Shown: piece by piece, positions 39 to 61,770 of the stretch
How positions within the stretch are numbered: position 1 is the first letter of the stretch
Layout of the letters: each line of letters opens with the position of its first letter
Assembly (NCBI GenBank): GCA_951406725.2
Contig: OX597819.1
Coordinates: 19,654,001-19,718,000 of the forward strand
Length of the DNA stretch: 64,000 nt
Origin: Octopus vulgaris
Lineage: Eukaryota
Reading direction: 5' to 3'
The notes under the pieces: generated by a model
What the model was told of the DNA's origin: nothing
The model's database searches: none
Seen by the model: only the letters and a program-made list of their open reading frames with translations
Made by a program: the position numbers and the translations under genes

Positions 39-258
39 ATTTCTTTATTACCCACAAGAGGTTAAATATAGAAGGGGCAAACAAGGAAAAACAAGGGGAT
101 TAAGTCGATTACAACGACCCCAGTCTGTAACTGGTACTTATTTAATCGACCGCAAAAGGATGAAGGGAAAAGTCGACCTCGGCGGAATTCGAACTCAGAA
201 CGTAATAACAGACGAAATACCGATATGTAGTTCGCCCGTCGTGCTACCGACTCTGCGA
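39..258 (-). mobile_element. SINE family A
   Basis: Shares the core ttctgagttcgaattccgccgaggtcgacttt.cc.ttcatcctt..ggtcgat.aa.taagtaccag with the copies at 23898, 49620, 49845 and 62595. Confidence 0.8.
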
Positions 259-2535
259 AATCGATCAATCTAAGACAGTTACGTCTCTGTTGTATCTCTT
301 TGTCAGTAATTTAGTCTTCTGGACACTGTTGGACCGGTACCTGCATTCCATGGCTTATAAGTAGTCGAGGTCACAACATTCGTCTCGAACGGAGCAGCTG
401 TTCGTCACAAGTTTCCTCTTTCACGGTCGAATGGAGTGGAGCAACATTAAATGCAGTATTTTCCTGAAGAACACCAAGTGTGAGAATCGAGACCACAATC
501 CTTCGATTGTGAAGGAAATACCCTAACCACCAGACTGCGCGCCTCCACCTCTTTATAGTATATGAGGTTTTTATTCGTCCAATATTAACTCTTTTTTTAT
601 GTCTTAGGGCGTATAAATTCAAATGTGTTTATGTGATTGTCCTATCAATTTAAACAAGAAAGAAGGTTCTCCCACGAACGTTAAAAGTTCATTTAGTTGA
701 AGTTTAGAGTCCTTGAGTTTCTGTCAGGAGTTCTGATCGACGGATGGTATCAACATTGGAAAGCATAACGGAAAAAGTTTACTTGGTTCACGCAGAACCA
801 GGGATTGTGTTAACGCGTATGTATATTAATCTCGACATTTCCCACTAACACACTCTCTCACTCACTCACTCACTCACTCACTCACTCACTCTTTCCCACG
901 GTAGGTCTCTGTCTACTTGCATGATTGAGTGTTTGCATATGTGTTGTGTGTACATATTTGTGCTTATATATGTCTTCAACAAGGAAAAGTTTTTTCATCG
1001 GATTTTGATGATCAGAAGTCGTTTAGGGAAGAGAGAGAAGGTAAGGGATATTGAAAGACGGGTGATACAGGCAAAGAATGATAATGTGTGACATAGAGAC
1101 CGATTCCGAAATGTTCTTCTAGGTTTGGTGCTTCTGTCTTGAAAAAGTCTATTCGGTAACAGGTCATGTATTGTCAGCTTGTGTATGAGTAAGTCGCATA
1201 TAGAAGACAAATTGACTCACGGATGCATATATTTTTCAACAGCTTCATAATAAGTTTAGTAGCCTTCATCTTTCATCCTCATCCATGCATGATACAATAC
1301 AGTCCCGGATCTCTTTTGCTTATTAATATTCCATGTGAAGCAGCCTATGCCTTTCTATTATTATGATTTCAGTCACTTCTGAGTGTCCACGCACCTAAAT
1401 TTGCCCTACACATTTTGTTGAGTATGGGAAAAGTTCTGCAATAATTTCGTCTAGGTTCCGGGCTATAATATTATGTGTGCTATTTTGAGATATAAGCCAA
1501 AACAGTCCCTGTTGCATAACTCTCTAATTATCCAGGATAAGATGGTGACATTCAGAAAAACAGAACGGGTCTGCTTATGTGATTCGTATTGCATAATACA
1601 AATTTGCAGAAGACGGGATCATCATTGCTCGAATGCCATTCATCGATTACGGCGATCAAATTTTATCGGGATAAACCACGCTGCACAAGAAGTTAACTAT
1701 TATTGTCTGCCAGCAAGAAAAATATTACTCCTTATAAATTTTAAATAATCTACAATTAAGCCTCAAAATCTTCATTTCGAAGTGGAAAATTTTAGAATTA
1801 ATTATACATGATTAGATATATAACACACACATGCATACATACCTCAATACTCATATGGAAGCACACACACGTACGCATACGTATATATACCCATAATGAA
1901 ACACAAGAGTCATGTATGGAACTACAACGAGAGCAGACTGGTAGCTAGAGTAATGTGTATATGTGTATGGATAGAATATTAAATGCTGTAATGACTGTAT
2001 ATTTTTAGCAAAATTATGTCCCTGTATTACATACTTTTTTCACGCCTTAATATCTATTTACATATTTATAGACTGCAGTTCTTGGTACAGTTCCAAATTT
2101 TGTTTCGACCAAAAACTTTCTAACTCAACATCGACATTTCCCTCCCTATCTCTCAACATAACACATACACACGTACATACATAAATACGGACATACGTAT
2201 ATATTACTATATGTGTATGTTTATATGTGCATGTGTGTGCATGAATATATATATATATATATATATAATACACATTCAATATTTTTTCTTTATCAAACAA
2301 CATCAACCACATATTATCATTATAAATGACGCCCAGTTTCTCCGTGCTTCATTGAAGATATATTTAAATAGTTATTATTCAATAAAGCCTATTTTTATAT
2401 TTATAACTATTCAGTGGTTTCACAGCCCGTATCTGCTTTTAGCTTTCAATAACACAACCGTTCTGACTTCTTCGCTAACAACTCAATAACATTCTAGAAA
2501 CAAACAACAGGCACGTATACATACACACACACACA

Positions 2536-2614
<79 letters not shown>

Positions 2615-2703
2615 GTATATATGTATATATATTATACGTGCATATAAAATCTGAATGCGTATATATTATATACACATTATACATGTACAAAAGTGTACAA
2701 ACC

Positions 2704-2757
<54 letters not shown>

Positions 2758-3208
2758 GGGTAAAATTAATTAATAAATCAACAATTAATAATTTTACCAT
2801 GTAGTTCGTTATGTTAAAAGAACCATTATCGGTAAACTTAAACAAATTTTTTTTATAATTATGAGTATATTTATAAATGTAATTATAAATATTTGCTTCA
2901 CCACATACCGAAATTTAGAAATACCAGTTAAAACCAGCTATTTCTCTACCATAACAAAATCTCCCAGACAACAATACTCAACAACCCACGCAGGCAAAGA
3001 TTAAAAAATAACGAATCCAATGTAAATTGGGGTTATATTTGCGGTTTTTGCACTCCCCACTACCTACACTGCCTTTACCAGTAACGATCTAAGGACAGTG
3101 TCTCTCCTCTTTCTCCCCGCACCCGTACAAATATTGTCCGTCTCCCATTTCCAGAAACCTACAACCCATTCTCCCTGCCTCTCCAACGCACCATTCTCCG
3201 CATGTTAT

Positions 3209-3281
<73 letters not shown>

Positions 3282-3409
3282 TCTCCGCATTGTAAGCCAT
3301 AATTAATTAAGAATTAAGCCTAAAAGAATATATATAAATGAAAAATATATACGAATGAGAAAATATATATACTAATGAGTAGAAACTATAACATTATAAG
3401 AATGAAAAT

Positions 3410-3464
<55 letters not shown>

Positions 3465-3865
3465 TAATGAAGAGGATGATTAAGAGACGATTGGAAACTA
3501 ATACGAATGACAACAGTTCAGGTGAACTGCAGGGTTCAATGAATTTATTTACACATATGTTTTGAAATACTAGGAACATATTTATACATATGTTTAGTTT
3601 GATATACCTTTAAGTTGAAATATATAATGATAGTTAAAGTTATAAACGGGGGATAGGTGGACCTGAAAATTGGGGTTGTATATAAGGGGAGGTTCCATAA
3701 GAGACTACGTGCCCCAAGAACATAGTATCCAGACTCATGAAACACGTGTAGCCGGGAGCTTTGAATATGAATTGTAAGTAGTAAATATAATATTCTATGA
3801 CATGGTTGAATTTATATTCTGGTTTGTTGAATTTTATGGGGATTTCTGTCTTTAATGTTACTTTG

Positions 3866-4061
<196 letters not shown>

Positions 4062-4291
4062 GAAAAAGCAAGTCAGGAGAGGAAATGCTAAAATAAATTT
4101 ATAAAGAACATTTCAGATGTTTTGGAAGAAGGAGTCGAAGGCTACTTTGTTGAGAGGGTTGTGTGTGGAGATGTATGGTAAGGCTTTTGTTCATGTAGTC
4201 GTGTGTCTCTGGTGTTTGCATTAGAAACTATAGTACATATCCTTTTTGCTAGATTGAAGGGGATATTCATATATATATATATATATATATA

Positions 4292-7890: not shown

Positions 7891-8938
7891 GTTCTCACAT
7901 GCGCTGGTTGCCAACATAATTATGTTGGACAAACGAGTCTCCCGTTACGTAAACGAGTAACGGTGCATAAAGAACAAATAAATCTCCCGGAATACCGACA
8001 AATTCCACTGAGTGACCACTTAGACTCATGTGCTAAAGACTTAAACCCCACATTCTATATATTCCCCTTCTACCAATGTAAAGACGGGATCACCACACAG
8101 GAGAGAATTAACAAGGAGAATCTCTTTATTGAAAAATTCCAAACACAACTTAATATGCGAACTCCTCGTTGATCAAACTTCCTTTTTCTACCTCACTCTT
8201 CATGGATGGACTAACACAAATATATAAAGATACCATGCATTCATCACTTCAAGCTAAAACTTATATCCTTTAAATACCATTTTTACTATTGTTGTTATTA
8301 CTATCATTTTTATTATAAATTATATGACAATCTGAAATGCAATTGTCTATGCAGATTTATATAATTAGAAAATGATATAAAGAAAGTGTTAAAATCTGAA
8401 AGTTAAGTTAACAAGCAATTATATAAAAAAGATAACGCAAATGAAGCTAAAATGATAATTTTATAATTTGGGTTTTACCAACAGCCCTTATTGAAGAACT
8501 CAAAAGAGTTGTCTCCCCTTACTCACAACACAGGAACTGAAGAACCACAATTACTACTACTTCCTGTCCTGCCAACATCCTGAATTAAACCAAACAACAC
8601 ATGCTCTTAATACCTTTGGATCCTAATACCTCAAGGTAATTTTTTCGTGAACAATCATTAAACTCAAGATACACAACGAACTCACAATGTATCGGAGTAC
8701 TTATTTTTTAATTTTTGTACATTTTTATCATTATTCTTTTGCAAAAAACAATGCAATTTTATTTTTTTCCTCTTTCTAATTTTTAAAAAAGTTTTTAAAG
8801 ATTAATATTCTTGACAAGTCATACAATGACGAAAACCGGTTGAATAAATTTATATTTATATATTTTATCAATTTCTCATTCTATTAAAATTTTCTTTCAT
8901 TTGAGCATTCTGCATTTTTTAAAAATTTTCCTTCTTAC
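7885..8938 (+). mobile_element. 5'-truncated PLE of a second Neptune-like family (GIY-YIG C-terminus plus 3' UTR) inserted in (TA)n
   Basis: 7885-8172 reads [74 protein letters not shown], collinear with the main element's endonuclease. (TA)n lies on both sides. Confidence 0.9.
8806..8846 (+). ncRNA. Degenerate minimal hammerhead in the 3' UTR of the truncated PLE
   Basis: tattc-TTGACAA-gtcat aca atgac-GAAA-accggtt-gaata. Stems are intact, stem III is palindromic (AACCGGTT) and the core is mutated. Its position matches that in the main element. Confidence 0.6.
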
Positions 8939-12659: not shown

Positions 12660-13458
12660 TGAGTGAGAGAGCAGTGCATGCCATCAAAGTGACACTGGGA
12701 TAAAATATACGAAGCCTAGTATAATCATCATGACTACCCGTCTGATAAGAGTACACTGAGGCACATGCATCACAACCATATTTGCGTGACAAGATAAACA
12801 GCACATGACCTTGCAGGTGGGGCCCCAGTTAGAATTTTTCCATCTGGTCGAGTAGCCCATGCCGCTCAAAAGGTCCCTGAATAAGGGTTGTTTAAGGATG
12901 TTGATCGAAACACCCATGTTTCCAAAGATTAATTATTCAAAATATACGAAGGGTAAAATATACGAAGCCCAATATACCCATCATGACTACCCGTCTGATA
13001 AGGGTATACCAGGCACATGCATCACAACTATATGTGCGCGACATGGTGATCTCATATCAAGATTAACAGCACATGACCTTGCAGGTGGGGCCCAGTTAGA
13101 ATTTTCTTCAGGTTGAGTAGCCCCTCCCGCTCAAAAGGTCCCTGAATAAGGGTTGTTTAAGGATGTTGAAAGAACCACCCATGTTTCCAGAGGTGAATTA
13201 TTCAAACCCCCAAAAGTCCCTCTCAACACATGGCTATGATGCTCCCCCACTACTTCTGCTCGTGATCAGAGATGCACATATCGTAAGCCACTAAGGGACA
13301 TGCTCAACTGGTTAAGGTCAAACAACTGACAAGCAAATCTGTGGTATTGAGCAGAATATTTGCTGTAGACCATCTTTTATACCAAGACAAAAGACTGTAC
13401 GTAATAAAACTTCCAATCAGTTAAAATCAGAAGCCGCGAGAGTCACTGCCTGGTACTG

Positions 13459-13460
<2 letters not shown>
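12660..13460 (-). mobile_element. Tandem partial (12660-~12940) and near-full (~12951-13460) copies of the (ATT)n-anchored element
   Basis: The block taaaatatacgaagcc...aattattcaaa occurs twice. (ATT)n flanks both ends. Confidence 0.85.
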
Positions 13461-26472: not shown

Positions 26473-26830
26473 TATATATAGTATATAAGTAGAAGGGCAG
26501 GCAACAGGTTGCTTTGCCGCATACCGAAAGAATTAGAAATAGCAGTCAGAGACTGTTTATTTCCATTTTCTACAAGTGGGGGCTCCATACACGACATAAC
26601 CCTGCAATACACATATGTAAAATCGGAGGAATAAATAAACGAAAACAATGCCTTACCGTTAATAGCGAATATTCCTCCTATTTTGCATATGTGTATTGCA
26701 GGGTTATGTCGTATATGGAGTCCCCACTTGTAGAAAATGGAAATAAACTGTCTCTGACTGCTATTTCTAATTCTTTCGGTATGCGGCAAAGCAACCTGTT
26801 GCCTGCCCTTCTACTTATATACTATATATA
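26473..26830. repeat. Foldback element: 161-bp inverted arms (26473-26633, 26670-26830) with a 36-bp loop and TA-repeat ends
   Basis: The arms are near-perfect reverse complements, which explains the mirror ORFs MPHTERIRNSSQR on both strands. Confidence 0.92.
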
Positions 26831-29085: not shown

Positions 29086-29633
29086 TTGCTACTACTACTC
29101 GTATTGCTTCAATTATATTATTCCTATTTACTACTACTACCGCTACTTTAAGACCATTGTCAAAATCAATAGCATCGTCATTAATATGGCTAATTAATAT
29201 TTCATTAAAGAATGAAATTAATTGCATTCTTTAGGAAAAAAAGTACTGAAAAGAATTGCAGAATAAAAATGAAAAATTAATATTAGTTCCAGTGAAAATG
29301 CAAATGAAAAATAAAAATAAAAGCAAAAAGATATTTTTGAAAATATACAGCAAATGTATAAATTTTCGAACTTTGCAAACGTCATAATTCTTATTGAGTA
29401 GATTATAAAGAAAGAAAAGCAGAATTATTACAAAATCTTTAGAAGCTAAATCTCATCGAAAGCAAACATTCGACATTATATATATATATATATATATATA
29501 TTAATAAAAAGAATTCCAACCTTGTCTGATTTTCACGTTTTATTTACAATCTTATAATGATATATTATAAGATAATATATTATAATTGAATAAAATAAAA
29601 TGAAATAGTAGAATGTTAAATATTCATTCTGAT

Positions 29634-29678
29634 TGAACTAGTACTTTCATGCATTGAATTCTGCAATCTTCGGGTTCA
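29634..29678 (-). ncRNA. Minimal hammerhead ribozyme, left-arm copy
   Basis: Exact reverse complement of 36936-36980. Confidence 0.8.
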
Positions 29679-30172
29679 TGTAGTAGTGTTGACAGTCATG
29701 CTTCACAGTTTTTGACTGTAGCAAGATGAGTGATTCTGTGCTATAAATACAGCTGGGTAGGCTCCAGAGTACTAGGTTTTGCAAACTGTATTCTGACCAA
29801 TCAGTGTGTAGTATCACTCAATTACTTAAGCTGATTGGTTGGTTGAGCTGATTGGTTTAGGCATCACGCTTTGTTGGACAGGTCAAGAGTCCTGTATCTT
29901 GACCCTGGCCGAAGCAGCAATTGTTGGGTTATTTTTAGAAATGTTGTAAATATCCTTTGTCAGAGATTTTTATATTTTTATATTTCAATTGTCATCATCA
30001 TCATTGTCAGCACCTTAATTATTGTTGCTAGTGGTGATGGTGGTGGCAATAGAACTTTTAACCCTAAATAAGATAATTTTCCTGCTATCTTCGTCTTGAT
30101 CACCTTTAGTATTGTTGTTGTTGTTAGTGGTCATGGTCGTAGCAGTGGAAGTAATACCTCTAAGTATTATTA

Positions 30173-33100
30173 TTATTGCTTATTTAGCTTGGGTTCGAAT
30201 TTATCAATAAAATTCTTTTCTCTGATTTTCCTCTCGATTTCACTTGGGCTGTGTAATTTGTAGAATGGAAATATTATATATATTTTCCGACCACATGTTG
30301 CTAGGTGGTTACTCAAAGGTATCTGACGGACCTCTGGGTCTCTAATCTGTTGCCGGTGTACACGTGAGCGTTCTAATAGTGCGTTTCCCGTCTGACCTAC
30401 ATATATTTCTTCACAATTTGGGCATTTGATGCAGTAAATTAAATTTCTGCTTTTGCAGTTCATATTCGCGTTTGTGAATATTTTCCCGGTTTTTGTGTTT
30501 ATATATTGACCGGTATGTATGAATTGGCATGTGCCACATCGGCTATCATTGCATTTAGATACCGTGAATGTTTGGTCTTTGTTGCTGAGGTCAAATTTTG
30601 CCTTTGTTAGTAATGTTTTCAAGTTTTTAAGCTGTCTTTTACTAAGCACCATAGCTCGATCCTTGATTATGTCTTTTAATTCATTACTTTGGGCAATGAT
30701 TGGTAGGTTTGCTTTGGCAATGTTGAAGATATTCTGGTGACATGGGTTGTGTGTCACTATGAATGGTATGACTTGTTCTTGTTTTCCTCTTCCTTGGGTT
30801 GTCCTAAGTTGTTGTATAGGTATTTTTATAGCCCGCTGTATGCCATTTTCTATAAGTAGAGATGGGTATTTTTGTTTGAGCAAAAATTCTCTTAGTTCTA
30901 TTAGGCGTTTGTTCCTGATATTTGCATCTTCTACAATAGTACAAATTCTTCTGGCTAGGCAGTATGGGATGTTACGTTTTGTATGTGGTGGATGGCACGA
31001 CTTAAAATTTAGGTATTGATGTGTGTCTGTGTGTTTATAGTATATATCTGTGGTGATGGTGGTGTCTTTTTTAATTACCATTATATCCAGGAATGGTAAT
31101 TTGGTACTACTCATCTCCTTTGTAAATTTGAGAGATGGGTGTAGGTTGTTCAGGAGGATATTGAACTCTTCCAGAGTATTTAGAGATTCTGTCCAGATTA
31201 TGAAACAGTCGTCTAGGTATCTCTTCCATGCCTTTTCAATATACTTTCTAAATCCAGTGCCATAGTTTACCTCCACCTCTTGGTAGAGTTGTTCTTCTAA
31301 GTATCCCATTACAGAGTTGGCGTAAACGGGAGCAAACCTCGTTCCCATCGCCGTGCCTCTAATTTGGATGTAATTCTTTCCATTGAAGAAGAATGTGTTA
31401 TTTTCTAGAATAAGTTTGACTGTGTCTAATATAAATGGCACTGTGAATCTGCTGGGAATCACTTCTCTATGTTTTTCTAACCAGTATTTAATCGCCTTTA
31501 TTCCTAAATCGTGTGGAATATTGGTGTAGAGGCTTACCACATCAAAACTTAGCAAAACTGAATTTGTTTCTGTTGTTTTGGGAAGATGGGACAGGAAGTC
31601 GATGTCATCCCTGATGAAACTTGGTATGTAAGTACATAGTGGTTTCAAAACAATGTCAATAAAATTGCTTAGACGGTGTGTAGGGCATGCTGGACCAGCT
31701 ATAATAGGTCTAAGTTTTAGGTCTTTTGGATGTAATAATTTTATGTACTCACTTTCTTGTTCTTTTACTGCCTGTTGAATGTTTTTTGATTTGTGTATTT
31801 TTGGTAAGCCGTAGAAGTTGCTGGGTTTTGGTTCAAAATTGGTGATGTAGTCTTTTTCATTATCCGTAAGTGAGTTGTGGTGTGTTGAAATCAGGTTGTT
31901 GATCTTTTTCATGATGTGGTGGTCTATATTTGCGGGTATTTCACAATAGAAGGTTGTATCCTTCAGTTGGTCTTCAACCAAATCCTTATAGTATTCGGTA
32001 TCCATAATAACAATTGCACCACCTTTATCTGCTTGTTTAATTATTATTGTTTGATCGTTTTGTATACGTTTACATGCAGACATCTCTGATTTGCTAATGT
32101 TTGGCCTAACATTGGTATTGCGTCTAAGGGGAAATTTAGACAGGATATCAATGTATTGGTCAAGGTAGTTATTTCTTCCTTTTGGTGGGGTGAAATTTGA
32201 TTTATTCCTTACTAGGGATTCATCAATCTCATTACTTTTGTTAGCGAAGAATTCTACAAGTCGTAATTTTCGACAGAATTTTTGGATATCCTCCTTTAAT
32301 TCTTGGTGGTTGGCTGTTGGTGTAGGTGTGAATTTCAGTCCTTTTGACAGAAGTTGGATTTCATCATTGTCAAGATCTCTTTTTGATAAATTAATTATTT
32401 TAGGATCTATACGTTCAGTTGTTTGGATTTTTTCTTTCTCCGGTGTTTGTTGTCCTGACGTAAAAAAATGGATTTTTTTCTGGTTATGATTTATATTCCT
32501 GTTGATGTTTGCTTGATGAATTTTGCGTTTTGGTTGTGGTACTTTACTTGGTTTCGTTATGTTTTCTGTCTTGTTTTTGGTATTATGTATGCTACTTTTC
32601 AATTTCTTGTTAGCATTGTTTTTAACCACCTGGAGAAATGATCTGGGTTTACTTCTAGATCTAGATCGGTTTTTTGTCCAGTTTCTTGTGGGTAATCTCT
32701 GTTGAGGTCTTGAAAATGATCTCCTGTTATTTCTACTGCTAATGGTCTGTTCAAAACAATATCTATTTTGTTTGTGCTTTTTGTTCATGTTGTGTGCATT
32801 AGGGTGTTTGCATACAAAATGGGAAGAGTTCTTACCGTAGTTCGTCTTCGATTCGTGGTGAAACGGGTGTTCATGTTGCCACGTGTTCTGGTGTATGTTG
32901 CGTTGGTGAGGTTGTCCACTTTTAATGCTATTTCTCGGAGTTCTGGTGTCTTTACCGTAATTTGTAGCATATTTGTCGAGAAATAATTGTTTCCGCTGCC
33001 AAAACTTTCTTGATCTGCTTTCTTCTTTTGAGATATCTCTGATCCATAGTTCTCGCATTTTTTCTGCTATATTGCCGGTCGTTAGTTTGGATATTTCATC

Positions 33101-33493
33101 TCTGATTTGATCATCGATAGCTTCGTATTTGGCTTTGTAGCGGGATTGTTTAGACAGGGTAATGGAGATGTCGGTCCTGAATTTTATCAAACTAAGTTCC
33201 CATCGAAGTTTAGTTTCTTCCTCTGGTTCTCCTGCAATTTCTTTAATTAGGTACTTCCGAGGAAGTATGGGTGCCGCTAAAGATATCCATTTCGAATGTA
33301 TTTCAGCATATTTTTCGCATTTATATGCCTTCCAGAAGTTTTGTTTTCTTATGTTAAGGAGTTTTTTCCATGTCTTCTGTATCTCTTCTCTTTTTCGGTG
33401 TGCCTCTTTTTCCAGATTTCTTTCGTTTATTTCTGACATCCAAGGAGGTTGTGGTAGGCTTTCTCTTGTAGATTTTATAATTGTTGGTATCAT
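30173..33493 (-). CDS. PLE polyprotein, 1106 aa: coiled-coil/basic region fused to RT and GIY-YIG endonuclease; 5'-truncated, with the frame open up to the inversion junction at ~33583
   Basis: RT motifs: IINLSKRDL..LLSKGLKFTPTP, KQADKGGAIVIMD, FYGLPKIHK, LRPIIAG, SFDVVSLYTNIP, GTAMGTRFAPVYAN, RYLDD, LPFLD. Linker CNDSRCGTC. Endonuclease NLIYCIKCPNCEEIYVGQT...R...H. Upstream codons (SSILKEIEKQSTDGKLGNEHINSEIKNLAE-M) stay open until a TGA at the junction. Confidence 0.95.
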   Translation of the reverse strand: MIPTIIKSTRESLPQPPWMSEINERNLEKEAHRKREEIQKTWKKLLNIRKQNFWKAYKCEKYAEIHSKWISLAAPILPRKYLIKEIAGEPEEETKLRWELSLIKFRTDISITLSKQSRYKAKYEAIDDQIRDEISKLTTGNIAEKMRELWIRDISKEESRSRKFWQRKQLFLDKYATNYGKDTRTPRNSIKSGQPHQRNIHQNTWQHEHPFHHESKTNYGKNSSHFVCKHPNAHNMNKKHKQNRYCFEQTISSRNNRRSFSRPQQRLPTRNWTKNRSRSRSKPRSFLQVVKNNANKKLKSSIHNTKNKTENITKPSKVPQPKRKIHQANINRNINHNQKKIHFFTSGQQTPEKEKIQTTERIDPKIINLSKRDLDNDEIQLLSKGLKFTPTPTANHQELKEDIQKFCRKLRLVEFFANKSNEIDESLVRNKSNFTPPKGRNNYLDQYIDILSKFPLRRNTNVRPNISKSEMSACKRIQNDQTIIIKQADKGGAIVIMDTEYYKDLVEDQLKDTTFYCEIPANIDHHIMKKINNLISTHHNSLTDNEKDYITNFEPKPSNFYGLPKIHKSKNIQQAVKEQESEYIKLLHPKDLKLRPIIAGPACPTHRLSNFIDIVLKPLCTYIPSFIRDDIDFLSHLPKTTETNSVLLSFDVVSLYTNIPHDLGIKAIKYWLEKHREVIPSRFTVPFILDTVKLILENNTFFFNGKNYIQIRGTAMGTRFAPVYANSVMGYLEEQLYQEVEVNYGTGFRKYIEKAWKRYLDDCFIIWTESLNTLEEFNILLNNLHPSLKFTKEMSSTKLPFLDIMVIKKDTTITTDIYYKHTDTHQYLNFKSCHPPHTKRNIPYCLARRICTIVEDANIRNKRLIELREFLLKQKYPSLLIENGIQRAIKIPIQQLRTTQGRGKQEQVIPFIVTHNPCHQNIFNIAKANLPIIAQSNELKDIIKDRAMVLSKRQLKNLKTLLTKAKFDLSNKDQTFTVSKCNDSRCGTCQFIHTGQYINTKTGKIFTNANMNCKSRNLIYCIKCPNCEEIYVGQTGNALLERSRVHRQQIRDPEVRQIPLSNHLATCGRKIYIIFPFYKLHSPSEIERKIREKNFIDKFEPKLNKQ

Positions 33494-33583
33494 TTCAGCT
33501 AAATTCTTAATTTCAGAGTTTATGTGTTCATTTCCAAGTTTTCCGTCTGTAGACTGTTTTTCTATTTCCTTTAAAATAGAGGA

Positions 33584-34207
33584 TCAAGAAAGTTTTGGCA
33601 GCGGAAACAATTATTTCTCGACAAATATGCTACAAATTACGGTAAAGACACCAGAACTCCGAGAAATAGCATTAAAAGTGGACAACCTCACCAACGCAAC
33701 ATACACCAGAACACGTGGCAACATGAACACCCGTTTCACCACGAATCGAAGACGAACTACGGTAAGAACTCTTCCCATTTTGTATGCAAACACCCTAATG
33801 CACACAACATGAACAAAAAGCACAAACAAAATAGATATTGTTTTGAACAGACCATTAGCAGTAGAAATAACAGGAGATCATTTTCAAGACCTCAACAGAG
33901 ATTACCCACAAGAAACTGGACAAAAAACCGATCTAGATCTAGAAGTAAACCCAGATCATTTCTCCAGGTGGTTAAAAACAATGCTAACAAGAAATTGAAA
34001 AGTAGCATACATAATACCAAAAACAAGACAGAAAACATAACGAAACCAAGTAAAGTACCACAACCAAAACGCAAAATTCATCAAGCAAACATCAACAGGA
34101 ATATAAATCATAACCAGAAAAAAATCCATTTTTTTACGTCAGGACAACAAACACCGGAGAAAGAAAAAATCCAAGAGGAAACATACCCCAAACAACTGAA
34201 CGTATAG
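33584..34207 (+). CDS. C-terminal part of PLE ORF1 (Arg/Lys/Ser-rich, RSRSRS), 5'-truncated, ending EETYPKQLNV* and overlapping the RT frame by 94 nt
   Basis: Same sequence as the left-arm polyprotein from SRKFWQRKQ to KEKIQ, but here it stops at 34205-34207 because of 17 extra nt at 34175-34191. Confidence 0.75.
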   Translation, partial: SRKFWQRKQLFLDKYATNYGKDTRTPRNSIKSGQPHQRNIHQNTWQHEHPFHHESKTNYGKNSSHFVCKHPNAHNMNKKHKQNRYCFEQTISSRNNRRSFSRPQQRLPTRNWTKNRSRSRSKPRSFLQVVKNNANKKLKSSIHNTKNKTENITKPSKVPQPKRKIHQANINRNINHNQKKIHFFTSGQQTPEKEKIQEETYPKQLNV

Positions 34208-36441
34208 ATCCTAAAATAATTAATTTATCAAAAAGAGATCTTGACAATGATGAAATCCAACTTCTGTCAAAAGGACTGAAATTCACACCTACACCAACAG
34301 CCAACCACCAAGAATTAAAGGAGGATATCCAAAAATTCTGTCGAAAATTACGACTTGTAGAATTCTTCGCTAACAAAAGTAATGAGATTGATGAATCCCT
34401 AGTAAGGAATAAATCAAATTTCACCCCACCAAAAGGAAGAAATAACTACCTTGACCAATACATTGATATCCTGTCTAAATTTCCCCTTAGACGCAATACC
34501 AATGTTAGGCCAAACATTAGCAAATCAGAGATGTCTGCATGTAAACGTATACAAAACGATCAAACAATAATAATTAAACAAGCAGATAAAGGTGGTGCAA
34601 TTGTTATTATGGATACCGAATACTATAAGGATTTGGTTGAAGACCAACTGAAGGATACAACCTTCTATTGTGAAATACCCGCAAATATAGACCACCACAT
34701 CATGAAAAAGATCAACAACCTGATTTCAACACACCACAACTCACTTACGGATAATGAAAAAGACTACATCACCAATTTTGAACCAAAACCCAGCAACTTC
34801 TACGGCTTACCAAAAATACACAAATCAAAAAACATTCAACAGGCAGTAAAAGAACAAGAAAGTGAGTACATAAAATTATTACATCCAAAAGACCTAAAAC
34901 TTAGACCTATTATAGCTGGTCCAGCATGCCCTACACACCGTCTAAGCAATTTTATTGACATTGTTTTGAAACCACTATGTACTTACATACCAAGTTTCAT
35001 CAGGGATGACATCGACTTCCTGTCCCATCTTCCCAAAACAACAGAAACAAATTCAGTTTTGCTAAGTTTTGATGTGGTAAGCCTCTACACCAATATTCCA
35101 CACGATTTAGGAATAAAGGCGATTAAATACTGGTTAGAAAAACATAGAGAAGTGATTCCCAGCAGATTCACAGTGCCATTTATATTAGACACAGTCAAAC
35201 TTATTCTAGAAAATAACACATTCTTCTTCAATGGAAAGAATTACATCCAAATTAGAGGCACGGCGATGGGAACGAGGTTTGCTCCCGTTTACGCCAACTC
35301 TGTAATGGGATACTTAGAAGAACAACTCTACCAAGAGGTGGAGGTAAACTATGGCACTGGATTTAGAAAGTATATTGAAAAGGCATGGAAGAGATACCTA
35401 GACGACTGTTTCATAATCTGGACAGAATCTCTAAATACTCTGGAAGAGTTCAATATCCTCCTGAACAACCTACACCCATCTCTCAAATTTACAAAGGAGA
35501 TGAGTAGTACCAAATTACCATTCCTGGATATAATGGTAATTAAAAAAGACACCACCATCACCACAGATATATACTATAAACACACAGACACACATCAATA
35601 CCTAAATTTTAAGTCGTGCCATCCACCACATACAAAACGTAACATCCCATACTGCCTAGCCAGAAGAATTTGTACTATTGTAGAAGATGCAAATATCAGG
35701 AACAAACGCCTAATAGAACTAAGAGAATTTTTGCTCAAACAAAAATACCCATCTCTACTTATAGAAAATGGCATACAGCGGGCTATAAAAATACCTATAC
35801 AACAACTTAGGACAACCCAAGGAAGAGGAAAACAAGAACAAGTCATACCATTCATAGTGACACACAACCCATGTCACCAGAATATCTTCAACATTGCCAA
35901 AGCAAACCTACCAATCATTGCCCAAAGTAATGAATTAAAAGACATAATCAAGGATCGAGCTATGGTGCTTAGTAAAAGACAGCCTAAAAACTTGAAAACA
36001 TTACTAACAAAGGCAAAATTTGACCTCAGCAACAAAGACCAAACATTCACGGTATCTAAATGCAATGATAGCCGATGTGGCACATGCCAATTCATACATA
36101 CCGGTCAATATATAAACACAAAAACCGGGAAAATATTCACAAACGCGAATATGAACTGCAAAAGCAGAAATTTAATTTACTGCATCAAATGCCCAAATTG
36201 TGAAGAAATATATGTAGGTCAGACGGGAAACGCACTATTAGAACGCTCACGTGTACACCGGCAACAGATTAGAGACCCAGAGGTCCGTCAGATACCTTTG
36301 AGTAACCACCTAGCAACATGTGGTCGGAAAATATATATAATATTTCCATTCTACAAATTACACAGCCCAAGTGAAATCGAGAGGAAAATCAGAGAAAAGA
36401 ATTTTATTGATAAATTCGAACCCAAGCTAAATAAGCAATAA
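34114..36441 (+). CDS. PLE RT + GIY-YIG ORF of the right arm; frame opens after TAA at 34111-34113, first AUG only at 34531
   Basis: The 636-aa ORF from 34531 matches the left-arm protein apart from KRQP vs KRQL. The frame is open for 139 codons upstream and includes the conserved IINLS..LLSKGLKFTPTP motif. Confidence 0.92.
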   Translation, partial: PEKNPFFYVRTTNTGERKNPRGNIPQTTERIDPKIINLSKRDLDNDEIQLLSKGLKFTPTPTANHQELKEDIQKFCRKLRLVEFFANKSNEIDESLVRNKSNFTPPKGRNNYLDQYIDILSKFPLRRNTNVRPNISKSEMSACKRIQNDQTIIIKQADKGGAIVIMDTEYYKDLVEDQLKDTTFYCEIPANIDHHIMKKINNLISTHHNSLTDNEKDYITNFEPKPSNFYGLPKIHKSKNIQQAVKEQESEYIKLLHPKDLKLRPIIAGPACPTHRLSNFIDIVLKPLCTYIPSFIRDDIDFLSHLPKTTETNSVLLSFDVVSLYTNIPHDLGIKAIKYWLEKHREVIPSRFTVPFILDTVKLILENNTFFFNGKNYIQIRGTAMGTRFAPVYANSVMGYLEEQLYQEVEVNYGTGFRKYIEKAWKRYLDDCFIIWTESLNTLEEFNILLNNLHPSLKFTKEMSSTKLPFLDIMVIKKDTTITTDIYYKHTDTHQYLNFKSCHPPHTKRNIPYCLARRICTIVEDANIRNKRLIELREFLLKQKYPSLLIENGIQRAIKIPIQQLRTTQGRGKQEQVIPFIVTHNPCHQNIFNIAKANLPIIAQSNELKDIIKDRAMVLSKRQPKNLKTLLTKAKFDLSNKDQTFTVSKCNDSRCGTCQFIHTGQYINTKTGKIFTNANMNCKSRNLIYCIKCPNCEEIYVGQTGNALLERSRVHRQQIRDPEVRQIPLSNHLATCGRKIYIIFPFYKLHSPSEIERKIREKNFIDKFEPKLNKQ

Positions 36442-36758
36442 TAATAATACTTAGAGGTATTACTTCCACTGCTACGACCATGACCACTAACAACAACAAC
36501 AATACTAAAGGTGATCAAGACGAAGATAGCAGGAAAATTATCTTATTTAGGGTTAAAAGTTCTATTGCCACCACCATCACCACTAGCAACAATAATTAAG
36601 GTGCTGACAATGATGATGATGACAATTGAAATATAAAAATATAAAAATCTCTGACAAAGGATATTTACAACATTTCTAAAAATAACCCAACAATTGCTGC
36701 TTCGGCCAGGGTCAAGATACAGGACTCTTGACCTGTCCAACAAAGCGTGATGCCTAAA

Positions 36759-36872
36759 CCAATCAGCTCAACCAACCAATCAGCTTAAGTAATTGAGTGA
36801 TACTACACACTGATTGGTCAGAATACAGTTTGCAAAACCTAGCACTCTGGAGCCTACGCAGCTGTATTTATA
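36759..36872 (+). promoter_or_regulatory. Putative Pol II promoter in the pLTR: three CCAATCAG boxes and TATTTATA (mirror copy at ~29742-29855)
   Basis: CCAATCAG at 36759 and 36776, inverted CTGATTGG at 36810, TATTTATA at 36865, about 65 nt upstream of the hammerhead. Confidence 0.5.
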
Positions 36873-36935
36873 GCACAGAATCACTCATCTTGCTACAGTC
36901 AAAAACTGTGAAGCATAACTGTCAACACTACTACA

Positions 36936-36980
36936 TGAACCCGAAGATTGCAGAATTCAATGCATGAAAGTACTAGTTCA
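36936..36980 (+). ncRNA. Minimal type I hammerhead ribozyme in the PLE 3' UTR/pLTR (right arm)
   Basis: tgaac-CCGAAGA-ttgca gaattcaa tgcat-GAAA-gtac-TA-gttca. Stem I tgaac/gttca, stem II tgca/tgca, palindromic stem III AGTACT, U4C core variant. PLEs are known to carry such minimal hammerheads. Confidence 0.8.
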
Positions 36981-37142
36981 ATCAGAATGAATATTTAACA
37001 TTCTACTATTTCATTTTATTTTATTCAATTATAATATATTATCTTATAATATATCATTATAAGATTGTAAATAAAACGTGAAAATCAGACAAGGTTGGAA
37101 TTCTTTTTATTAATATATTCTTCTATACACAATCACACACAC

Positions 37143-37199
<57 letters not shown>

Positions 37200-45718: not shown

Positions 45719-45913
45719 ATGTGAGCTCGTGTGTACCGTTTTTTCCCCTCTGTCTTCCCTTCTCGGGGTCTTTCCTTCTCCTATGTTTCCGACGAAGAGC
45801 TCCGCTCGAAACGTTAAACCCTCTTTCTTCCCTTATTTCCTGAGCGTCCAATAATACTATATTTGTTCCACGTCCTCGCGTTGTTGTGTTTTGTTGTGTT
45901 TTCTTGTTTGAAT

Positions 45914-54857: not shown

Positions 54858-55572
<715 letters not shown>

Positions 55573-55573
55573 G

Positions 55574-55715
55574 TGTGAGAGAGCAGCTCATGCCATCAAA
55601 GTAACACTGGGGTAAAATATACGAAGCCCAATATACCCATCATGACTACCCGTCTGATAAAGGTATACCAGGCACATGCATCACGACCATATGTGCGCGA
55701 CATGGTGATCTCATA
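55574..55715 (-). mobile_element. Truncated copy of the (ATT)n-anchored element
   Basis: Retains only the gtgagagagcag end. Confidence 0.85.
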
Positions 55716-55906
55716 TATTATTATTATTATTATTATCTTTATTATTATTATCATTATTATTATTAATAATATTATTATTATTATCATTATTATTATTATT
55801 ATTATTATTCAGTAGTTTTATTTTTATAGCGTGTTTCCTCTTCACTACCGAGCGCAGCTCTGTGTGCCTTGGGTATGTGCTGTGATTTGTTGTGATGCTA
55901 TGATGG

Positions 55907-61577: not shown

Positions 61578-61770
61578 GTTAACCCAAACAAGCAAGAAAA
61601 ATCAACAACGCGCGGACGTGGAAGACGAATAGTGTTATTGGACGCTCAGGAAAGGAAATAAAATAAAGAAGATTTCGCGTTTCGAGCGGAGCTCTTCATC
61701 AGAAATATAGAAAATTCCAAAGAAGGGAAGATGGAGAAAGAAAATCGCCAACGATGCACACACGGTCACA
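61578..61770 (-). mobile_element. Second copy of the short hammerhead element (ribozyme 61672-61706, cleavage site mutated), 3' end in (TA)n
   Basis: Reverse complement reads attt-CTGATGAA-gagc tcc gctc-GAAA-cgcg-aaat. The flanks (tcctgagcgtccaataa, ttccacgtcc..gcgttgttg) match the 45719 copy. Confidence 0.72.

What the first reader, a model, noticed from the sequence alone, without database searches (positions are those of the whole stretch)
29496..37118. 7.6-kb palindromic PLE insertion with 3.5-kb inverted arms, each containing the whole RT-endonuclease
Seen: two differently 5'-truncated copies (one breaking at ~33581, the other at the equivalent of 33015) are joined head-to-head at a shared GATC, with both 3' ends outward and in TA-rich sequence. 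The arms differ by the 17-nt indel and at least four substitutions (three in the UTR, one L/P). Known: PLEs often carry inverted pseudo-LTRs, but these normally cover only the 3' few hundred bases. Inference: this was one event in which both target strands primed cDNA from the element's 3' end, or a snap-back of the first cDNA, resolved by microhomology. The result mimics a TIR transposon, and read-through transcription would give ~3.5 kb of dsRNA.
Basis: partly seen in the sequence, partly recalled or inferred. Interest (0 to 1): 0.72.

Follow-up and report, generated by a model that had tools for sequence, protein, structure and literature searches.

The report
Twin-primed jumping-gene palindrome, one tail
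This 7.6-kb mirror-image insert is two shortened copies of a young Penelope-type jumping gene joined head to head, a known and here very common layout, and because such inserts almost always carry the element's short tail on exactly one side and share rare mutations across both halves, both halves are likely copied from one RNA molecule by the two cut DNA strands.

Summary
Confirmed: 3.5-kb inverted arms, 4 substitutions plus a 17-nt indel, RT and GIY-YIG in both. Corrections: the junction overlap is GAT, not a shared GATC; the right arm runs on through a 26-nt tail to 37144; the indel is a deletion unique to the left arm that fuses two normally frameshifted ORFs. The insert is not exceptional. 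30 of 71 family clusters on one chromosome stretch are head-to-head, at least 13 have RT-EN in both arms, and one spans about 25 kb. The layout and a one-sided tail are published for Penelope-like elements. What the family adds is a test of mechanism: 45 of 47 head-to-head inserts carry the tail on exactly one end (49% expected), on the longer or the shorter arm, and the arms share rare alleles (here one found nowhere else in the genome). This excludes simple snap-back for this insert. It best fits both nicked (AT)n strands priming at two adjacent AU sites of one RNA, with the cDNAs then joined by microhomology. No read spanning the junction was obtained. The scan noted this layout, dual priming and the frameshift before on other DNA.

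The parts
29477..29500 (.). (TA)n target tract at the left end; merges with the untailed 3' end
29496..33584 (-). Left, longer arm: unit positions 166-4271, 5'-truncated, ends at AU site A without tail
30173..33583 (-). 1136-codon open frame: partial ORF1 fused to RT-EN by the private 17-nt deletion; lacks the ORF1 start codon
32426..32427 (-). Site of the 17-nt deletion between CCAA repeats; the only such allele in the genome
33016..33581 (-). Unpaired 'spacer': ORF1 sequence present only in the longer arm
33582..33584 (.). Head-to-head junction with 3-nt overlap (GAT)
33582..37118 (+). Right, shorter arm: unit positions 735-4271, native two-frame layout
34129..34135 (+). U UUU UUU in ORF1 frame inside the 93-nt ORF1/ORF2 overlap; candidate -1 slippery site (ORF1 stops at 34207)
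   Evidence: relatives keep HF[FL] and stop at the same place
34114..36441 (+). ORF2, 775 codons: RT (YLDD at 35395), CX4CxxC linker (36061), GIY-YIG with CCHH (36172-36321)
36865..36895 (+). TATA-like TATTTATA and, 30 nt on, the family's 5'-truncation hot spot (unit 4047-4054); inferred start of the RNA
36906..36906 (+). Allele shared with the left arm (29708) and found nowhere else in the genome
37111..37118 (+). AU site A (TAATATAT), where untailed ends stop
37119..37144 (+). 26-nt tail, present on this end only
37145..37195 (+). AU site B merging into the (AT)n target tract

Best explanation
This is one insertion of a young (AT)n-targeting Penelope-like retrotransposon, made of two 5'-truncated copies joined head to head, and both copies were likely reverse-transcribed from the same RNA by the two nicked target strands. 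Shown: two 3'-end types, ending at AU site A or at AU site B 26 nt further on; one of each type per palindrome; arms with shared rare alleles; independent truncation points; short overlaps or templated inserts at the joins. Inferred: (1) the RT-endonuclease nicks both strands of an (AT)n tract; because (AT)n is its own complement, both 3' ends can pair with AU runs of the same sense RNA. (2) One end takes site A and the other site B, which gives exactly one tail. (3) The A-primed RT leads; the B-primed RT follows and displaces the first cDNA from an RNA that stays intact (PLE RTs have no RNase H, recalled), so the arms overlap and stop independently. (4) The two cDNA 3' ends anneal through 1-5 nt or a templated patch, as in theta-type end joining (recalled), and each would be extended on the other, which supplies both second strands. 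The 5 arm-specific differences here are separate RT errors or later mutations.
For: Tail rule: 45 of 47 scorable head-to-head inserts have one tailed and one untailed outer end, 2 have none and 0 have two. Single-orientation inserts are 37 tailed to 28 untailed, so 49% discordance is expected; p=3.5e-12. The untailed arm is longer in 24, the tailed arm in 13, and 8 are equal. Same template: 16 of 21 pairs with over 1 kb overlap share a minor allele other than site 2214, against 6.2% of 3534 unrelated pairs. 15 of 16 pairs agree at site 2214 (A 41, G 44), p=2.6e-4. The window's shared allele occurs in only these 2 places genome-wide. In tandem-containing palindromes L038, L052 and L143 the opposite arm matches the outer (3'-most) unit. 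In the no-tail exception L057 it carries the inner unit's allele, which fits priming at a different junction, where no exclusion is expected. 21 of 23 junctions without insert have 1-5 nt overlap, against 44% expected, p=2e-6. Symmetric short palindromes stop on both arms at the 4048-4054 hot spot. Literature: the anole Poseidon protein cleaves and extends both strands, is a predicted dimer, and the tail lies between two RT start sites (PMC11167929).
Against: Shared alleles show one template lineage, not one molecule: two RNAs from the same source locus, or gene conversion between arms, would also give them. One pair (L146) disagrees at site 2214, and L052 has an allele shared by both left units but absent from the right arm. 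The second no-tail exception (L145) is only weakly explained. L047 (junction palindrome, arms ending 10 nt apart in mid-element) and L050 (13-nt fold-back insert) show that local fold-back of a cDNA end does occur. The bias towards a longer untailed arm is not significant (p=0.10). [quoted passage not shown] Strand displacement is untested.
Confidence: 0.62

Rival explanations
1. Two RNA molecules from the same source locus, held by an asymmetric RT-EN dimer in which one subunit starts at site A and the other at site B.
For: Explains shared alleles by cis preference, independent truncations and arm-specific errors without strand displacement; a dimer is predicted for a Poseidon protein (PMC11167929).
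Against: Needs an extra source of asymmetry: a homodimer on two identical RNAs should give matching or independent ends, but 0 of 47 have two tails. The inner-unit allele in the no-tail case L057 fits site occupancy on one RNA.
Confidence: 0.17
2. A hairpin intermediate made by self-priming (on an antisense template, as proposed in PMC3846280) is cut by the endonuclease at sites A and B and then integrated.
For: Published proposal based on junction palindromes; PMC8557442 ascribes the tail to EN-mediated resolution. Gives shared alleles directly. The TATTTATA motif reads as a TATA box on both strands. Fold-back junctions occur in L047 and L050.
Against: A fixed stagger should tie the tail to one arm class, but it is on the shorter arm in 24 and the longer in 13. 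Most junctions are not palindromic. Both arms often stop at the inferred start of the sense RNA.
Confidence: 0.12
3. Snap-back: the first cDNA folds back and is copied to give the shorter arm.
For: Shared alleles and microhomology; feasible for the 13 cases with the tail on the longer arm; L047 looks like this.
Against: The copy cannot hold sequence its template lacks. Here the shorter arm has the tail and the 17 nt that the longer arm lacks, and 24 of 37 asymmetric cases have the tail only on the shorter arm. An untailed first cDNA predicts no-tail/no-tail, seen in 2 of 47.
Confidence: 0.05
4. Assembly artefact: fold-back read, haplotype mis-join or GATC ligation.
For: No read or contig spanning the junction was seen.
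Against: GATC is not native on the left. The arms differ at 5 sites and at their 3' ends, unlike a fold-back read. They share a genome-unique allele. The same layout with the one-tail rule recurs at 46 other scored loci with different junctions.
Confidence: 0.03

Closest known systems
Inverted 5'-truncated copy plus one-sided tail of endonuclease-bearing Penelope-like elements (PMC8557442 text and Fig. 2 legend; Adineta vaga Pen2/Pen2a in PMC3846280; passages read)
   Same: Partial tandems, an inverted truncated copy at the 5' end, head-to-head polarity, a short tail often on one end only, microsatellite targets, microhomology at 5' junctions.
   Different: The passages read give the one-sided tail only qualitatively and explain the structure by antisense self-priming or EN resolution. 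Here it is counted (45 of 47), is independent of arm length and comes with shared alleles. Arms run from about 12 nt to about 13 kb.
PAc Poseidon in vitro (PMC11167929, main text read)
   Same: AT-rich target, both strands cut and extended, tail between two RT start sites, predicted dimer.
   Different: That work reports no strand difference in start site and does not treat inverted inserts; its start sites lack homology to the target, whereas here both are AU runs matching the (AT)n target. PAc has one ORF and a hammerhead; this family has two frames and no hammerhead was detected.
L1 twin priming (recalled)
   Same: Two target strands prime on one RNA and the cDNAs are joined by microhomology.
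   Different: In L1 the second primer anneals internally and the two segments do not overlap. Here both start at the 3' junction, 26 nt apart, so the arms duplicate each other.
Neptune/Nematis clades of EN+ PLEs (PMC8557442 passages)
   Same: C-terminal GIY-YIG with CCHH, CX2-5CxxC linker, (TA)n insertion.
   Different: Separate 430-aa ORF1 overlapping RT-EN in the -1 frame. The Fig. 1 legend mentions an ORF1 separated by a frameshift, but the figure was not visible, so its clade is unknown to me.

Membership tests
EN+ Penelope-like element | RT with C-terminal GIY-YIG endonuclease | tested here: met
   PF00078 (E 2.3e-6, below curated cut-off) and PF01541 (E 2.7e-5); YLDD and GIY-YIG motifs; 1112 homologues at E<=1e-50
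EN+ Penelope-like element | CCHH motif in the endonuclease | tested here: met
   CIKCPNC...H...H in ORF2
EN+ Penelope-like element | Partial tandems forming pLTRs, direct or inverted | tested here: met
   4271-nt unit in partial and full tandems; inverted copies
EN+ Penelope-like element | Optional short tail at one end | tested here: met
   26-nt tail, shorter than the 30-40 nt in print
EN+ Penelope-like element | Hammerhead ribozyme in the pLTR | tested here: not met
   No hammerhead family among 20 Rfam hits at E<=5 on L003; no CTGANGA on the sense strand of the unit. Divergent ribozymes are not excluded.
EN+ Penelope-like element | Single ORF | tested here: not met
   ORF1 430 aa plus ORF2 775 codons in the -1 frame in most copies; three relatives end ORF1 at the same place
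Neptune/Nematis clade | CX2-5CxxC linker between RT and EN | tested here: met
   CNDSRCGTC at 36061
Neptune/Nematis clade | RT phylogeny with clade references | not tested
   No named reference set was fetched
Naiad/Chlamys clade | Endonuclease N-terminal to RT | tested here: not met
   EN is C-terminal
TIR DNA transposon | Transposase, or copies of the whole unit with the same junction | tested here: not met
   Only RT-EN is encoded; the long palindromes among 35 junctions all differ
TIR DNA transposon | Target-site duplication | tested here: inconclusive
   Both ends merge into (AT)n; no empty allele was seen
L1-type twin-priming inversion | Inverted segment does not overlap the 3' segment | tested here: not met
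   Both arms contain the 3' end and overlap over 3.5 kb

The most novel reading that the evidence does not exclude
Penelope-like elements use terminal twin priming: both nicked strands of a self-complementary (AT)n target load on two AU sites 26 nt apart on one RNA, the trailing RT displaces the leading cDNA, and the two cDNAs template each other's second strand. This one cycle would explain inverted pLTRs, the one-sided tail and palindromes up to 25 kb.
Probability: 0.5. Interest if true: 0.68.

Novelty: new member of a known kind. Interest (0 to 1): 0.42.

Why it matters
The structure is a known PLE insertion form and is common in this family, so the locus itself is ordinary. Its value is as a test set. 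PMC8557442 names the formation of tandem and inverted structures as an undefined part of the PLE cycle. This young family (1641 exact 3' ends) gives counts that separate the published ideas: exactly one tail per palindrome, on either arm, with both arms from one template lineage. That turns the question into a two-barcode experiment with the existing in vitro system. It also means the family keeps writing near-perfect palindromes of kilobases into the genome, which could form cruciforms or long dsRNA (untested).

Tried and rejected
Raw support for the junction: only assembled contigs of public runs were available. None of the listed pieces crossed 33582-33584; the 'opposite strands' joint is the native element continuing across the edge of the stretch I laid, not the junction. 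The unique left flank had no cover in four runs. Neither result is evidence either way, and no empty allele or TSD was obtained. No run was on record as RNA; guessed-RNA contigs covered the unit without a splice joint across the ORF overlap, which does not exclude an intron. Hammerhead search gave nothing. No strong RNA structure downstream of the U7 run (-2 to -6 kcal/mol), so no pseudoknot is claimed. ORF1 relatives: none among proteins of 754-2150 aa (weak evidence), none in metagenome contigs, and only this family in the own genome, so the slippery site could not be read in relatives' DNA. The end tally mis-placed some ends and was replaced; the run-length count had an offset error and was redone. 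In one search, 12 of 35 junctions were scored as inserts and left out of the overlap test; 4 of them (L034a, L042, L058, L148) are near-junction substitutions rather than true inserts. L104 (left 3' end lost) and L100 (N gap) were not scored for tails. Two papers were not held. PMC6431247, PMC5408684 and bioRxiv 10.64898/2026.07.22.740005 passages added nothing on mechanism. No host gene was looked for beyond ORF lists, so read-through dsRNA is open.

Full report
1. Observation. The inverted repeat is real in the assembly: 29496-33015 pairs with 37118-33582 over 3537 columns with four substitutions and one 17-nt indel. The left strand carries a 1136-codon frame and the right a 775-codon frame, with RT and C-terminal GIY-YIG domains and a CX4CxxC linker and CCHH motif. 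The window lies in a 2.8-Gb assembly; the nearest named protein relatives are mostly molluscan.

2. The family. The element is young: the long copies scored are 99% identical. It has 1641 exact matches to a 3'-end 26-mer, 225 to a 26-mer at the RT start and a 4271-nt unit in partial and full tandems. Full units have ORF1 (430 aa) overlapping ORF2 by 93 nt in the -1 frame, with U UUU UUU in the overlap. Three ORF1 relatives keep HF[FL] and stop at the same place, so a programmed -1 frameshift is likely. The scan's earlier notes report this in other families, and the Fig. 1 legend of PMC8557442 mentions such a frameshift.

3. Upstream of the left arm's 5' end other copies read CACA|ATCC, so the overlap is GAT only and GATC is not native on that side; a GATC ligation artefact is therefore not supported. 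The 17 nt are the norm, and the deletion allele occurs once in the genome, where it fuses the two frames. The right arm continues through a 26-nt tail to 37144. Both arms lack the ORF1 start.

4. How common the layout is. The first 100 of the 1641 3'-end matches form 71 clusters on C1:3.4-146.3 Mb, with 20 head-to-head, 8 direct and 1 tail-to-tail adjacency. I fetched DNA at all 71; 30 of 71 contain a head-to-head join once diverged or tiny arms are counted. At least 13 inserts have RT-EN in both arms: the window, L038, L049-L052, L141-L146 and C23:4.574-4.600 Mb, the last about 25 kb with tandem arms. Short palindromes cluster at unit 4047-4054, 30 nt after a TATA-like motif, the inferred RNA start.

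5. The tail rule. Outer 3' ends fall into two classes: ending at AU site A, or running 26 nt on to AU site B. Single-orientation inserts are 37 tailed and 28 untailed. Head-to-head loci were chosen by position, not by tail. Of 47 scorable ones, 45 have exactly one tail, 2 have none and 0 have two (35, 12 more read; two of those 12 have one arm of only about 12-22 nt). Independence predicts 49%; p=3.5e-12. The untailed arm is longer in 24, the tailed arm in 13, and 8 are equal. In the window the shorter arm has the tail.

6. One template. Both arms here share an allele (36906/29708) that occurs at only these two places in the genome. Across 21 young pairs with over 1 kb overlap, 16 share a minor allele other than site 2214, against 6.2% of 3534 unrelated pairs; 15 of 16 agree at site 2214. 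In tandem-containing inserts L038, L052 and L143 the opposite arm follows the outer unit. In the no-tail exception L057 (a small 11.8-kb contig) it carries the inner unit's allele. Against: L146 disagrees at 2214, L052 has one allele that does not fit, and gene conversion between arms is not excluded.

7. Junctions. Of 35 junctions in young copies, 23 have no insert and 21 of these have 1-5 nt overlap (44% expected, p=2e-6). The other 12 were scored as inserts; 8 are true short or templated patches such as local duplications or a fold-back. This resembles theta-type end joining (recalled).

8. Mechanism. Snap-back fails wherever the shorter arm holds sequence the longer lacks, as in this insert. 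A hairpin cut with a fixed stagger predicts a fixed tail-to-arm relation, which is not seen. The simplest model is that both nicked strands of the self-complementary (AT)n target prime on one sense RNA, one at A and one at B. The trailing RT displaces the leading cDNA, both stop independently, and their 3' ends are joined and extended on each other. Steps 1-4 of that model are inferred; only their products are shown. Two RNAs from one source on an asymmetric dimer remain possible.

9. What is known. [quoted passage not shown] PMC3846280 (passages) notes head-to-head polarity and proposes self-priming on an antisense template. PMC11167929 (main text) shows cleavage and extension of both strands and places the tail between two RT start sites. 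Searches (listings only, open-access library) showed no paper that counts the one-tail rule or proposes twin priming for PLEs; subscription papers and two older papers were not available. Earlier scan notes, seen after my reading was formed, describe the same layout in short stubs and suggest dual priming; they are unchecked and not independent support.

10. Not shown. No read or contig across this junction, no empty allele, no TSD, and no expression or dsRNA evidence.

11. Verdict. A real, single-event insertion (about 0.95) of a known kind. The locus is ordinary within its family; the family-level counts make an open mechanistic question directly testable. Interest 0.42.

Noticed in passing
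G000:C23:4574218-4599695 (L147-L149): About 25-kb palindrome of the same family: three full units plus a 395-nt piece on the left, a 3.7-kb piece plus two full units on the right, tail on one end only.
   Followed up: partly
window 34114-34207; L151, L152, L153, L159, L160, L015: ORF1/ORF2 overlap with a U7 run. Several copies have a one-base insertion in or near the A runs of the overlap that joins the two frames (three full-length copies give 1199 aa); these may be RT slippage or sequencing errors in homopolymers.
   Followed up: partly
unit 4047-4054 (window 36895 and 29719): 5'-truncation hot spot 30 nt after TATTTATA, which reads as a TATA box on both strands; yields 220-nt solo ends and symmetric 440-nt palindromes.
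   Followed up: partly
L018, L020, L055, L110, L142, L150 junctions: Short templated duplications at 5' junctions, in single as well as two-armed inserts.
   Followed up: partly
L075, L080, L093, L097, L155: An older subfamily (85-95% identity) with shared diagnostic changes; its head-to-head members (L075, L080, L093, L155) also follow the one-tail rule.
   Followed up: partly
window 26473-26830: Unrelated 358-nt palindrome (91% arm identity) set in (AT)n; may be a head-to-head stub of another family.
   Followed up: no
window 12662-13459, 54860-55404, 55575-55716: Dispersed repeat (84-97% identity) in partial tandem beside microsatellites; not identified.
   Followed up: no
window 7894-8154 (+) and 4134-4267 (-): Old fragments of other PLE families: endonuclease end (43% aa identity) and RT thumb.
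   Followed up: no
window about 61670-61702 (-); related to 45781-45879: Hammerhead-like core (CTGATGA...GAAAC) in a short repeat that also matches 45781-45879 in inverted orientation.
   Followed up: no
P0012, P0014, P0028, P0073, P0100: Close ORF2 homologues are filed under bacterial gill symbionts; probably host PLE sequence in symbiont assemblies.
   Followed up: no
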